The position numbers are program-made. Shown here in pieces: positions 48,001-51,000 of a stretch of 64,000 nt of DNA (position 1 is the stretch's first letter; every line of letters starts with the position of its first letter). This DNA is from Fimbriosthenelais zetlandica (taxonomy: Eukaryota). The stretch lies in contig OZ365113.1 in the NCBI GenBank assembly GCA_977030845.1, positions 13,268,001-13,332,000 of the forward strand. The letters are read 5' to 3'.

Positions 48001-51000
48001 CGTCCACAAAAACGCACATTTTTTTGCCAATAGTAGGACCGTAGACATTCTTTTTCCGCCTAAAACCAAATTGGAATATGATTATATGGCCTAGTATTTT
48101 GGTTAACTTAAATCCAATCAAGAAAAAATTTATTACTTACCTGTCGAGCTTGGAGAAGATTATATCCTGAGTCTGGTTTGAGGAGGTCCTTGCAGAGAAA
48201 TTGATGTTACAGATGGTGTATAAATCTCTGGGTAGCTGAAGCAGGTAGCTGTTAGTGATGGCCGACTTGCCAGTACCGGTAGGTCCAACAAATAACACTG
48301 GCTGACCATTACTGACGAACTGCCGGAGGAAGTACCGCAGTCTCTCAGTCTCCACAGTTTCAATGATTAGTTCATTCACCTGTAATGGTTCAATAATCTC
48401 TCTCAGAATCTTTACTTGGTATACTTGTTTCAAGGGTGACCAGACATTATGAGTGGTATAATATTTTCACAGTGTGGGGGACTGCTTATAAATAAAAAAT
48501 CATAAAACTTATAACGGTTTAACTCTAACCATGCATACACAAATACATAGAAATGGATTTTATACAGTGATTGAGAGGAGCAATCTGGACTGTAGGAATG
48601 ACAGAATATTTACATGAAAAGTAAAGATAGGTTCAAGATCATTTAGAATATCAATTCATAAATGCATACACCTTAATCAAATGCAAATTCACAATGTTAA
48701 ACCACATCATCTCACGAATCAAGAGAAATTATGATTTTGAGGACATCAGTCTGAATCAGGAACAGAAATATATCATGCAATATTATCAGGAACAAGATCA
48801 AGGTTGATAAAGGGTTTTTAAATTGGATGAATGCAGGCAGGGTTTGAGGATGGAGGAAATGAAGAGTAGAAAGACTAAGGTAGAGCTGGATACAAACTAA
48901 AAAAATAAATAAATGTAACAGTCGAGGTAACTTCTTTTAGGTGTCTTACCATCTGGCGCAGCTCGTGTTCCCTCTAAATGCGTATCACACAAAAGCAGAG
49001 ATATTGATAAATGAAAAAACCATGGACTGACCCAGCATTTACAGCAATGTACATTATCCTCAAAAAATTATAATTCACACCGAATTCAGAGACATATTTA
49101 ACACAAGTTGAAATTCGAGACATATTTAACACAAGTTGAAATTCAAGACAAAACTGCGGTCACCCAAGGAGGAAAAACGATGTGAAATATCTTTTACAAA
49201 AGAGTTTATAATGTAATATGAAAATGTAAGATGCACAGATACAGATTTTACCAGAATAGTAATGTATAGGCTTATCTAAGTTACCTTGATGTCCTGAAAA
49301 TATAGGTAAAAAAGATAAAAATGAAATTAAATATTAATAGCTCTAGATGGTCTAGATGGTCCATCATGAATGTTTGATTATCTGTGGAAACAAACATCTC
49401 GTCAAGAATGTCCAAATGGATTTTATATTAAAATTAAATATAAATTGTATAGAAGAATTTCATTTGAAAACAAATTAAACGTTCGACATATTAGTGTTAG
49501 ATAATGAAAAACATGTTAGATAATGACTGTGGAATAAAAAAACTTCCATTCGCCAAAAGTCCTATAAATCTTGTAGAGTTTTAATGAATTTGTATCATGC
49601 ACTGAATTTACGGTGAAATGCTTGTGTTTGTTTCACATATAATGTAATATAGTCTAGGTTTCAAATATAGGAATGAAATTCATGCATACTGATGCCACTA
49701 GCGCAAGATTGGTGTTAAATGCGCAGGTCTGCTGCAATCAAATTAACATTGGGCATCTTTCAAACAGGTTTATCATCCTGAGCACAATTTCACTGATGTA
49801 AAAGGTCAGCTGGTGGCATACAATATGCAGGAATTTATGAGGAATTCCATGTTCCGTTTTATACCTTAGCATTGCTTGCCACATTGATGGGTGGTACGAT
49901 GTTCCCCCAAGTGTTCCATGATCCAAACTGGCGATAAACGTAGACATGGTCGTAGACAAGGCCTTTCTTAGGAATTAGCAGAGTTCTGGCTATTTTCAGG
50001 TCTTTCGGTCTGCCCAGGCAATGTGAAAAATATTTAACTAATTTAGTACAGATTGCATGAATGAGAAACGTTTTTGCAACATGCTTTCTGCAATTATTGC
50101 TGCTGATTTCTACATGTATGCTGAGAAGCTGTGGTTAGTTACTGCCTAATATTGCAGAATGTTATTACTTTCTCTATTCAAATGTTCATAAGTACTCAAT
50201 GGTTTATGTTACAATACATGTTAGTAGAAAAAACAACAATGCAAAGCACAACAAGTTCGCAAGATATTGCATGTTCTACAATACAATCTGAATGCACATA
50301 TAAAAGCCAAAGTTATAAAGGTTTGCGCACAGCACGTTCTGAAACACATCTAGCTATTTTTTCCTTCGTGATGCAGACCTTGAATTTTTTATCGAGATCT
50401 GTGCCTTGGACCAAACTTTGCCAGGTTTTCAGTGATCCCATATTGGTTTGTGTATAAATATAACTACATGTAAACAGCTTGGATTGCTTGGGCATCAGGG
50501 CACAATTAGAGATTTTAAGTCGTGGTGGTCAAAGCAATATTGAAGGCAAACAAGCAAAGGAACATATTAATTGCTATATAGCAAACTTCAAAATAGGGTA
50601 CCGGTACCTTAATTAAATTGTGTATACCTAAATTGATTTCTAGCCCTACAATAGTATAGCTTATCTATAGACCTGTGTTGATTTTCTTAAATGAAGAAAG
50701 CATGGCAGAAAGCAAAGAAACTACTTGGATTATGTTGGTGTTTGTAAAAATATCATAAAAGAAACTTATGGGTTGGATATATTTGATCAATAAAATTCCT
50801 CAAACTATAGGGAATCTTTGTCAAAGCAAGTTAACATCCATTTTGAAAGCAATATGGTCGCTATTGGGAAGGCTAGTAATTATCCAACATCACAAAAATG
50901 AAAATGCCACACCTCAGTTCTGAGCCACAGCTAATGAAAGTTTTCCAAGTAAAAATTAGATAAACAAATGTTATAATAAAAAACCCATTTCGTAGTTACA

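What the first reader, a model, noticed from the sequence alone, without database searches (positions are those of the whole stretch)
48950..49293. Two candidate in-frame microexons (9 nt DIK, 24 nt REHELRQM) at the AAA2-AAA3 junction
Seen: both have good acceptors and donors, lengths divisible by three, and phase 0 matching the flanking exons (...SNAK | VNELII...). The 9-nt exon has an exceptionally clean pyrimidine tract. The 24-nt exon has a TGC ~22 nt upstream. Established: microexons typically remodel surface loops, and many animal ones are SRRM3/4-regulated through upstream UGC motifs. Inference: combined with exon A/B they could give a combinatorial set of dynein motor isoforms that standard annotation would miss.
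Basis: partly seen in the sequence, partly recalled or inferred. Interest (0 to 1): 0.65.

Follow-up and report, generated by a model that had tools for sequence, protein, structure and literature searches.

The report
Candidate microexons in a dynein intron
Two tiny in-frame exon-like stretches lie in an unusually long intron of an axonemal dynein gene, but related dyneins join the flanking exons directly, so at most the 9-base one may be an optional extra.

Summary
They lie in the 1485-nt phase-0 intron between an exon ending SNAK (49865) and one starting VNELII (48379). The gene is a DNAH3-type axonemal dynein.

Two mammalian DNAH3 chains read AK directly followed by VSELII. The direct join therefore gives the conserved protein, and neither insert is needed.

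The 9-nt element is still not ordinary. It ranks 1 of 3217 in-frame AG..GT candidates on both strands, and shuffles almost never match it (1 of 3000; 0 of 1000).

The 24-nt element has a weak standard acceptor and ranks 39 of 3217. It does sit on the intron's most GC-rich patch, with a distal pyrimidine tract and a TGC.

No RNA data or related genomes could be searched. My estimates: 9-nt used at some level about 0.3, 24-nt about 0.1, the combinatorial SRRM3/4 reading about 0.04. Low-to-moderate interest.

The parts
49285..49293 (-). 9-nt candidate microexon GACATCAAG (DIK)
   Evidence: It ranks 1 of 3217 AG..GT in-frame candidates by splice-site sum, and by sites plus codon score. The codon score is frame-specific: 4.3 against -0.8 to -1.4 in shifted frames.
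49294..49338 (-). 3' splice region of the 9-nt candidate: CAG preceded by a pyrimidine tract, with a 45-nt AG-free zone
   Evidence: 17 of 20 pyrimidines at -22..-3. Acceptor score is 8.2 (generic) and 7.4 (own matrix). It is one of 15 of 3935 AG sites on the gene strand at or above 7.35. AG-free zone 45 nt and no TGC.
49279..49284 (-). 5' splice site GTAACT of the 9-nt candidate (AAG|GTAACT)
   Evidence: Donor score 3.8 (generic) and 4.9 (own matrix), mid to upper range of the 26 modelled donors.
48950..48973 (-). 24-nt candidate microexon (REHELRQM)
   Evidence: GC is 15 of 24, in the most GC-rich patch of the intron. The codon score is the top of 885 windows but is not frame-specific. Combined rank is 39 of 3217.
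48974..49026 (-). Upstream region of the 24-nt candidate: TTTAG acceptor, TGC at 48997..48995, a more distal pyrimidine-rich stretch, and a 51-nt AG-free zone
   Evidence: Acceptor score -3.7 with both matrices. 13 of 20 pyrimidines at -22..-3. AG-free zone 51 nt, best 20-nt tract 15 of 20 pyrimidines, TGC 19 nt before the AG.
48944..48949 (-). 5' splice site GTAAGA of the 24-nt candidate (ATG|GTAAGA)
   Evidence: Donor score 4.2 with both matrices.
49865..50009 (-). Exon A, ending ...VASNAK in phase 0; donor AAG|GTATAA
   Evidence: It has a weak but specific match to DNAH3, DNAH7 and DNAH12 chains. Its generic donor score of -0.9 is the lowest of the 26.
48141..48379 (-). Exon C, starting VNELII and carrying the AAA3 P-loop GPTGTGKS; its acceptor has almost no pyrimidine tract
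   Evidence: DNAH3 E=7.5e-26. Pfam AAA_7 E=5.3e-26. Acceptor has 9 of 20 pyrimidines, the second lowest of 26.
48380..49864 (-). The 1485-nt phase-0 intron that holds both candidates
   Evidence: It is the longest of the 26 modelled introns. 24 of them are 81-252 nt and the other long one is 1122 nt. It holds 27 in-frame stop-free AG..GT candidates. There is no Rfam match at E<=1. The only repeats reported are a 28-nt tandem repeat at 49083..49150 and two short low-scoring rows at 49342..49361 and 49824..49846.
50379..50528 (-). 'Exon B': a diverged tandem duplicate of exon A inside the 1122-nt upstream intron
   Evidence: BLASTP against exon A gives E=1e-6 with 12 of 40 identical. 0 of 300 shuffles reach its score. 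TG stands at the position of A's acceptor AG, and its other sites are weak. It has no PDB or Pfam match.

Best explanation
The gene is a DNAH3-type inner-arm axonemal dynein heavy chain on the minus strand.

Its conserved mRNA joins exon A (ending ...VASNAK) directly to exon C (starting VNELII...). Neither candidate belongs to the conserved protein.

The 24-nt element is most likely an intronic pseudo-exon: a good GTAAGA donor that happens to have an in-frame AG 24 nt upstream, inside a GC-rich patch.

The 9-nt element is a real and unusual sequence feature, a top-grade 3' splice site followed 9 nt later by a decent 5' splice site. I think it is most likely skipped in most transcripts. With only 9 nt between the two sites, the factors binding them would crowd each other (recalled textbook view, an inference here). 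At best it is a minor, lineage-specific cassette adding Asp-Ile-Lys just before the first strand of AAA3.

Shown: the sequences, phases, site strengths, chance rates and the ortholog junction. Inferred: actual usage.
For: 1. Ortholog junction. One search covered the window's own ORF (exon C plus its in-frame intron tail). It prints human DNAH3 (8j07_g3) residues 2037-2048 as VPAGAKVSELII and chain 9fqr_Xx as HISASAKVSELII. AK is immediately followed by V, S/N, ELII, exactly as exon A's end and exon C's start give, with no gap.
2. Where the length difference lies. The 2-residue difference from DNAH3 lies further upstream, between query residues 38 and 43 of exon A.
3. DNAH7 (8j07_g2) also aligns to the direct junction without a gap.
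4. Spacing. The spacing from the conserved Trp of exon A to the Glu of ELII is 16 residues here, 18 in DNAH3, and 17 in DNAH7 and DNAH12. The duplicate exon B keeps the same 14 residues after its Trp.
5. The 24-nt acceptor scores -3.7, below all 26 modelled acceptors with the own matrix. On the gene strand 11 of 1664 candidates are as good, and 122 of 3000 shuffles give one.
6. A TGC within 40 nt upstream is found at 84 of 201 intronic AGs.
7. This gene carries decayed exon duplicates: exon B and a frameshifted copy near 45540..45375. Long introns with exon-like debris are therefore expected here.
Against: 1. The 9-nt pair is far beyond chance. It ranks 1 of 3217 candidates on both strands with both matrices, and also with codon score added. 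It was matched in 1 of 3000 shuffles of this intron and 0 of 1000 shuffles of all 26 introns.
2. Acceptors this strong on the gene strand are mostly real. Of the 14 other AG sites at or above 7.35, I read 11 as true exon starts. One lies 11 nt inside an exon, one is an intronic decoy and one is unknown (my reading of the translations). The antisense strand has only 2 such sites.
3. The direct join pairs weak sites across the longest intron. Exon A's donor has the lowest generic score of 26, and exon C's acceptor has 9 of 20 pyrimidines.
4. The 24-nt element has several exon-like traits:
- It lies on the most GC-rich patch of the intron. 6 of the 7 windows with 15 or more GC out of 24, among 1462 windows, overlap it.
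- It has the best codon score of 885 windows.
- It has a 51-nt AG-free zone, a distal pyrimidine tract and a TGC 19 nt before the AG.
- With thresholds set after the fact at its own values, 17 of 3194 candidates have such an acceptor, and it has the best donor among them.
5. Mammalian orthologs cannot exclude a lineage-specific alternative exon.
Confidence: 0.6

Rival explanations
1. The 9-nt element is a genuine alternative cassette microexon. Exon A's donor splices to the strong acceptor at 49294, and the GTAACT donor splices to exon C. This inserts Asp-Ile-Lys between the conserved Ala-Lys and Val at the AAA2-lid/AAA3 boundary in a fraction of transcripts or in certain cells.
For: - It ranks 1 of 3217 candidates. 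Shuffles matched it in 1 of 3000 and 0 of 1000 rounds.
- It has 17 of 20 pyrimidines and a 45-nt AG-free zone, against a median of 29 for real acceptors.
- Its codon score is frame-specific.
- The outer sites are weak and the intron is unusually long.
- Strong acceptors on this strand are mostly real ones.
Against: - Orthologous DNAH3 chains have no residues at this point.
- No RNA evidence or conservation test was possible.
- A 9-nt exon is hard to define (recalled).
- All 25 modelled exons are 88 nt or longer, worked out from the coordinates, so the gene shows no precedent for a tiny exon.
- The thresholds were set at the candidate's own values.
Confidence: 0.3
2. The 24-nt element is a genuine regulated microexon of the SRRM3/4 type. 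It would have a distal pyrimidine tract, a UGC between tract and AG, a long AG-free zone and a strong 5' splice site, and it would insert REHELRQM.
For: - Donor score 4.2.
- TGC 19 nt before the AG, a 51-nt AG-free zone and a 15 of 20 pyrimidine tract further upstream.
- It has the best donor among the 17 of 3194 candidates with such an acceptor.
- It lies on the most GC-rich patch of the intron and has its best codon score.
- A preprint describes UGC between pyrimidine tract and AG in 74-79% of SRRM3/4-dependent microexons, with a long branch point to AG distance and a strong 5' splice site (10.1101/2024.09.17.613571, passages seen).
Against: - The standard acceptor score is -3.7 and the combined rank is 39 of 3217.
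- The codon score is not frame-specific: 6.0 against 2.5-4.5 in other frames.
- TGC is common by chance.
- An 8-residue insert would make the linker 6-7 residues longer than in any aligned homologue.
- The architecture criteria were chosen after seeing the candidate.
- An axonemal dynein is not an obvious target of a neural programme (inference).
Confidence: 0.1
3. The 9-nt exon is constitutive and has simply been missed by protein-based models.
For: - The inner sites are strong and the outer sites weak.
- With DIK the Trp-to-Glu spacing would be 19, against 18 in DNAH3.
Against: - DNAH3 chains read AK then VSELII without a gap.
- The length difference maps upstream of the junction.
- Exons A and B both end exactly 14 residues after the Trp.
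Confidence: 0.03
4. The strong acceptor is a fossil of a further decayed copy of the duplicated exon A/B unit, with no present function.
For: - Exon B is a clear duplicate.
- Exon A's peptide finds a weak echo, IYRTFGEW at 49569..49546, in this intron. 8 of 300 shuffles reach its score.
- A second frameshifted exon copy exists near 45.4 kb.
Against: - Nucleotide alignment of exon A or B with flanks against the intron does not exceed shuffles: 35 of 200 and 65 of 200 reach the observed score.
- The echo lies about 250 nt upstream of the 9-nt element, not next to it.
- A fossil does not explain the adjacent donor.
Confidence: 0.08

Closest known systems
SRRM3/4 (eMIC)-dependent neural microexons of animals (3-27 nt)
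   Same: Both candidates share the length class, frame preservation and position at a domain boundary or loop. For the 24-nt element there is also a UGC between an upstream pyrimidine tract and the AG, a long AG-free zone and a strong 5' splice site (features as described in 10.1101/2024.09.17.613571, passages seen).
   Different: The host gene is an axonemal dynein. The 9-nt element has no UGC and a conventional strong 3' splice site. Neural inclusion, conservation and the presence of the regulator in this animal are untested.
Constitutive or broadly used mini-exons defined by strong flanking sites (for example the 9-nt invertase mini-exon of plants; recalled, no call)
   Same: The 9-nt length and a very strong pyrimidine tract upstream.
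   Different: Orthologous proteins lack the three residues, so it cannot be an old constitutive exon.
Intronic pseudo-exons (decoy splice-site pairs)
   Same: They are in-frame AG..GT pairs in an intron with no support from homologous proteins. There are 27 such pairs in this intron alone.
   Different: The 9-nt pair is much stronger than any other decoy in 128 kb of sequence scanned over both strands.
Mutually exclusive duplicated exons in dynein heavy chains (Schistosoma mansoni cytoplasmic DHC1; PMC3228551, passages seen)
   Same: A tandem duplicate of one motor-domain exon sits in the neighbouring intron. Lengths of 145 nt and 151 or 85 nt leave the same remainder on division by three, so including both would shift the frame.
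   Different: Exon B lacks an AG at the homologous acceptor, has weak sites and has no detectable dynein similarity beyond exon A itself. It may be dead.

Membership tests
Cassette microexon (generic) | Canonical AG and GT borders, length 3-30 nt, frame kept, no stop | tested here: met
   Both candidates meet this.
Cassette microexon (generic) | Splice-site quality comparable with real exons of the same gene | tested here: inconclusive
   The 9-nt element meets it: acceptor 7.4 to 8.2 and donor 3.8 to 4.9, within or above the range of the 26 modelled junctions. The 24-nt element has a good donor, but its acceptor at -3.7 is below all 26 with the own matrix.
Cassette microexon (generic) | Presence in mature mRNA | not testable with these tools
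Cassette microexon (generic) | Conservation of the exon and flanking intron in related species | not testable with these tools
SRRM3/4-dependent microexon | UGC between pyrimidine tract and AG | tested here: inconclusive
   The 24-nt element has a TGC 19 nt before the AG with a pyrimidine-rich stretch upstream, but 84 of 201 intronic AGs have a TGC within 40 nt. The 9-nt element has no TGC in the 60 nt upstream.
SRRM3/4-dependent microexon | Neural or endocrine-specific inclusion that depends on the eMIC domain protein | not testable with these tools
   There are no expression data, and the organism is not identified beyond 'an animal' (Pfam Rost and RING hits on neighbouring ORFs).
Conserved (constitutive) part of DNAH3-type dyneins | Residues present at the same place in orthologous proteins | tested here: not met
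   8j07_g3 and 9fqr_Xx read AK directly followed by VSELII, so there is no room for 3 or 8 extra residues.
Mutually exclusive exon pair (exon A/B) | Similar length, same phases, sequence homology, and usable splice sites on both copies | tested here: inconclusive
   Homology is met (0 of 300 shuffles) and so is the phase. Splice sites are not convincing: TG stands at the homologous acceptor, the internal AG scores -2.2 and the donor 2.3.

The most novel reading that the evidence does not exclude
The long introns around exon A form a small alternative-splicing hub in the motor domain of an inner-arm dynein. It would contain a 9-nt cassette (DIK) defined by an exceptionally strong 3' splice site, a 24-nt UGC-type cassette (REHELRQM), and a duplicated, mutually exclusive exon B. 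Together these would tune the AAA2-lid/AAA3 junction in a cell-type-specific way.
Probability: 0.04. Interest if true: 0.6.

Novelty: new member of a known kind. Interest (0 to 1): 0.22.

Why it matters
If the 9-nt exon is used, it would put three residues directly in front of the first strand of AAA3 in a DNAH3-type dynein, at a junction that is otherwise conserved from this animal to mammals. That would give a simple handle to ask whether inner-arm motors are tuned by splicing. It would also be a worked example of an exon that homology-based annotation cannot see.

If it is not used, it is a useful example of how strong an unused splice-site pair can be. Either way the practical message is modest. 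The annotated direct junction is right for the conserved protein, and the combinatorial-isoform idea lacks support.

Tried and rejected
1. Relic hypothesis at DNA level. Exon A or B with flanks, aligned to the intron, does not exceed shuffles (35 of 200 and 65 of 200 reach the observed score). blastn of the intron against the window finds only its own 28-nt tandem repeat.
2. A small RNA or other known RNA element in the two long introns. There are 0 Rfam matches at E<=1 in 48300..51200.
3. Exon B as a recognisable dynein piece. There are 0 PDB hits at E<=10 for its last 40 residues and 0 Pfam families at E<=1 for all 50.
4. Linker length as a test of the 9-nt exon. The spacing is 16 here against 17-18 in human paralogues. 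That alone could not decide; the junction residues shown did.
5. An in-frame upstream acceptor that would extend exon C by IIEPLQ. I rejected it because the orthologues have AK directly before V.
6. Fetching PDB chains by id was not possible.
7. The second-best candidate, 34828..34805, turned out to be the real acceptor of the last dynein exon with a chance GT inside it (my reading).
8. Literature. 'microexon' with 'DNAH3' is held by 0 papers. 'microexon' with 'axonemal dynein heavy chain' is held by 2 papers, of which 1 was listed and not read.
9. The gene model of 26 junctions is hand-picked's ranked lists, using my recollection of conserved dynein motifs. It is not transcript-verified.
10. 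The generic splice matrices are recalled approximations.
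Full report
**What is there**

The region lies in a gene on the minus strand. Reading that strand:
- An exon that I call exon A (50009..49865) ends ...VASNAK in phase 0 with donor AAG|GTATAA.
- The next exon, exon C, begins at 48379 with VNELII and carries the P-loop GPTGTGKS.
- Between them is a 1485-nt intron.
- Inside it are GACATCAAG (DIK, 49293..49285; ...TTTTCAG before, GTAACT after) and a 24-nt stretch encoding REHELRQM (48973..48950; ...CATTTAG before, GTAAGA after).
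- TGC lies at -24..-22 of the latter.

**The gene**

- Exon C matches human DNAH3 (8j07_g3) at E=7.5e-26. By my count of the printed match line, 51 of 79 aligned residues are identical. It also matches 65 further PDB sequences at E<=0.001.
- Exon C matches Pfam AAA_7 positions 9-88 of 181. The exon before exon A matches Dynein_AAA_lid.
- Exon A alone gives weak hits: 9 sequences at E<=10. Six are DNAH3, DNAH7 or DNAH12 chains (best E=0.024) and three are unrelated.
- 'AAA2-AAA3 junction' is therefore correct.
- I do not take the contig for human, given introns of about 100 nt and 65% identity to human DNAH3. Neighbouring ORFs with Pfam Rost and RING matches point to an animal.
- The window holds one run of 136 N, which I left alone.

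**Gene model used as a yardstick**

- I built 26 consecutive junctions between 55350 and 45875. I took them from ranked frame-compatible GT/AG pairs and direct reading, choosing by my recollection of conserved dynein motifs.
- All 26 have GT and AG borders. The model is hand-made and not transcript-verified.
- Intron lengths are 81-252 nt for 24 of the 26. The two exceptions flank exon A: 1122 nt and 1485 nt.
- I scored sites with a generic matrix (recalled approximate frequencies) and with a matrix built from the other 25 junctions.

**Is it more than chance?**

With at least 40 nt of intron required on each side, the 26 introns (5547 nt) hold 58 in-frame, stop-free AG..GT pairs of 3-30 nt. 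Of these, 27 are in this intron. Such pairs are therefore common.

*The 9-nt pair* stands out:
- Acceptor scores are 8.2 (generic) and 7.4 (own); donor scores are 3.8 and 4.9.
- It has 17 of 20 pyrimidines at -22..-3, equal to the best of the 26 real acceptors.
- Over the whole window and both strands it is the only candidate at or above its own two thresholds: 1 of 1664 on the gene strand and 0 of 1554 on the other.
- It ranks first of 3217 by the sum of site scores with either matrix, and first when a codon-usage score is added.
- Dinucleotide shuffles of the intron gave a candidate as good in 1 of 3000 rounds, or 3 of 3000 by sum. Shuffles of all 26 introns gave 0 of 1000, or 3 of 1000 by sum.
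- Its three codons score 4.3 in frame against -0.8 to -1.4 in shifted frames. Only 3 of 1220 stop-free 9-nt windows of the intron score as high. The AAG codon is counted in the donor score too.
- The thresholds were set at the candidate's own values, so these figures flatter it somewhat.

*The 24-nt pair* is ordinary by standard sites:
- Its acceptor scores -3.7 with both matrices, below all 26 with the own matrix. Its donor scores 4.2.
- On the gene strand 11 of 1664 candidates are as good, and 2 of 1554 on the other strand (own matrix).
- 122 of 3000 shuffles give at least one as good. Its combined rank is 39 of 3217.

Results in favour of the 24-nt pair should be told as fully:
- It lies on the most GC-rich patch of the intron. 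The intron is 32% GC, and 7 of 1462 24-nt windows have 15 or more G+C. Six of those seven overlap the element.
- It has the best codon score of 885 stop-free windows, though not frame-specifically: 6.0 against 2.5-4.5.
- Upstream it has a 51-nt AG-free zone, a 15 of 20 pyrimidine stretch and the TGC 19 nt before the AG.
- With criteria set after the fact at those values, 22 of 3914 and 27 of 3841 AG sites qualify. 17 of 3194 candidates have such an acceptor, and this one has the best donor of the 17.
- This layout resembles what a preprint describes for SRRM3/4-dependent microexons: UGC between pyrimidine tract and AG in 57 of 73 and 51 of 71 cases, a long branch point to AG distance and a strong 5' site (10.1101/2024.09.17.613571, passages seen).
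- The TGC alone means little. 84 of 201 intronic AGs and 13 of 26 real acceptors have one within 40 nt.

**What homologues say**

I searched exon by exon and left out every joined model, in searches and folds alike.

- A search with the window's own continuous ORF (exon C plus its in-frame intron tail, 109 residues) made HMMER extend the alignment. It printed the residues that precede the junction in solved dyneins.
- Human DNAH3 reads VPAGAKVSELII from residue 2037. Chain 9fqr_Xx reads HISASAKVSELII. Its depositor's label names another protein, but it aligns as a DNAH3-type chain.
- Exon A ends VASNAK and exon C begins VNELII. The direct join therefore reproduces AK, then V, then S or N, then ELII, without a gap.
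- DNAH7 (...PPIPKDVMFNEIIV...) also aligns without a gap.
- The two residues by which this protein is shorter than DNAH3 map upstream, between residues 38 and 43 of exon A.
- Neither insert is therefore part of the conserved protein, and a constitutive 9-nt exon is very unlikely. A lineage-specific optional exon is not excluded.

**Surroundings**

- The upstream long intron holds a diverged duplicate of exon A ('exon B', 50528..50379). BLASTP gives E=1e-6 with 12 of 40 identical, aligned to the very end. Its score of 68 compares with a shuffle maximum of 40, so 0 of 300 shuffles reach it.
- Exon B has TG where A has its acceptor AG. An internal AG would give an 85-nt, frame-compatible exon, but it scores -2.2 and the donor 2.3.
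- Exon B has no PDB hit at E<=10 (last 40 residues) and no Pfam hit.
- A second exon duplicate near 45540..45375 needs two frameshifts to read like its neighbour 45184..45020.
- The gene thus accumulates decaying exon copies, which can explain long introns.
- A weak echo of exon A (IYRTFGEW, 49569..49546) lies in the 1485-nt intron (8 of 300 shuffles reach its score). DNA-level alignments are not above shuffles.
- No Rfam family matches in 48300..51200 at E<=1.
- Mutually exclusive duplicated exons are known in a dynein heavy chain, Schistosoma cytoplasmic DHC1 (PMC3228551, passages seen).

**Arguments that the 9-nt element may be used**

- Of the 14 other AG sites on the gene strand with an own-matrix score of 7.35 or more, I read 11 as true exon starts, five of them training sites. 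One lies 11 nt inside an exon, one is an intronic decoy and one is unknown. The antisense strand has 2.
- The direct join pairs the donor with the lowest generic score of 26 with an acceptor having 9 of 20 pyrimidines, across the longest intron.
- Against this, the orthologues lack the residues.
- All 25 modelled exons are 88 nt or longer, worked out from the coordinates.
- Very short exons are hard to define (recalled).

**Verdict**

- The conserved transcript joins exon A to exon C directly.
- The 24-nt element is most likely a pseudo-exon (about 0.1 that it is used).
- The 9-nt element is a real, statistically exceptional splice-site pair whose use is unproven (about 0.3).
- The SRRM3/4 and combinatorial readings are speculative (about 0.04).

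**What stayed unchecked**

- Transcripts.
- Orthologous introns and proteins from related animals.
- Supplementary tables of microexon catalogues.
- Literature searches: 'microexon' with 'DNAH3' is held by 0 papers. 'microexon' with 'axonemal dynein heavy chain' is held by 2, of which 1 was listed and not read.

Noticed in passing
window 50379..50528 (-): A diverged tandem duplicate of exon A ('exon B') lies inside the 1122-nt upstream intron. It shows significant similarity to exon A, but it has TG at the homologous acceptor, weak sites, and no PDB or Pfam dynein hit. It is either a possible mutually exclusive exon or a dead copy.
   Followed up: partly
window ~45375..45540 (-) versus exon 45020..45184 (-): A second tandem exon duplicate. 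The upstream copy reads like its neighbour (PWP..D, AL..., FHQSV..LSD) only across two frame changes, so it looks like a decayed pseudo-exon or carries sequence errors.
   Followed up: partly
window 48380..49864 and 50010..51131 (-): The two introns flanking exon A are 1485 and 1122 nt. The other 24 modelled introns of the gene are 81-252 nt.
   Followed up: partly
window 55349..55541 (-): The Rfam lncRNA family RMST_9 matches at 77.1 bits (gathering score 65) exactly over a coding exon of the dynein gene, the exon ending ...LVQ at 55350. The match is probably to coding sequence rather than to a lncRNA.
   Followed up: no
window 52662..52734 (+): A tRNA-Tyr (GTA) of 73 nt lies antisense inside a 252-nt dynein intron. 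It was found by both ARAGORN and Rfam; no intron in the tRNA was reported.
   Followed up: no
window 49083..49150: A 28-nt unit is repeated 2.4 times in tandem (95% matches) between the two candidates.
   Followed up: no
window 34805..34828 (-): The second-best 'microexon' by site scores is really the strong acceptor of the last dynein exon (...[20 protein letters not shown]...), with a chance GT 24 nt inside it (my reading).
   Followed up: yes
window 48380..48420 (-): The acceptor of exon C has almost no pyrimidine tract (9 of 20) and several AGs within 60 nt upstream. Only 16 nt of AG-free sequence lie before it. It is an atypical 3' splice site for this gene.
   Followed up: partly
window 23752..25869 (-) and 17796..18506 (-): Downstream of the dynein gene are two further ORFs. 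One is a 706-codon open frame with a Pfam Rost (rolling stone) match at its C-terminal end and a long basic low-complexity middle. The other ends in a RING-type zinc finger.
   Followed up: no
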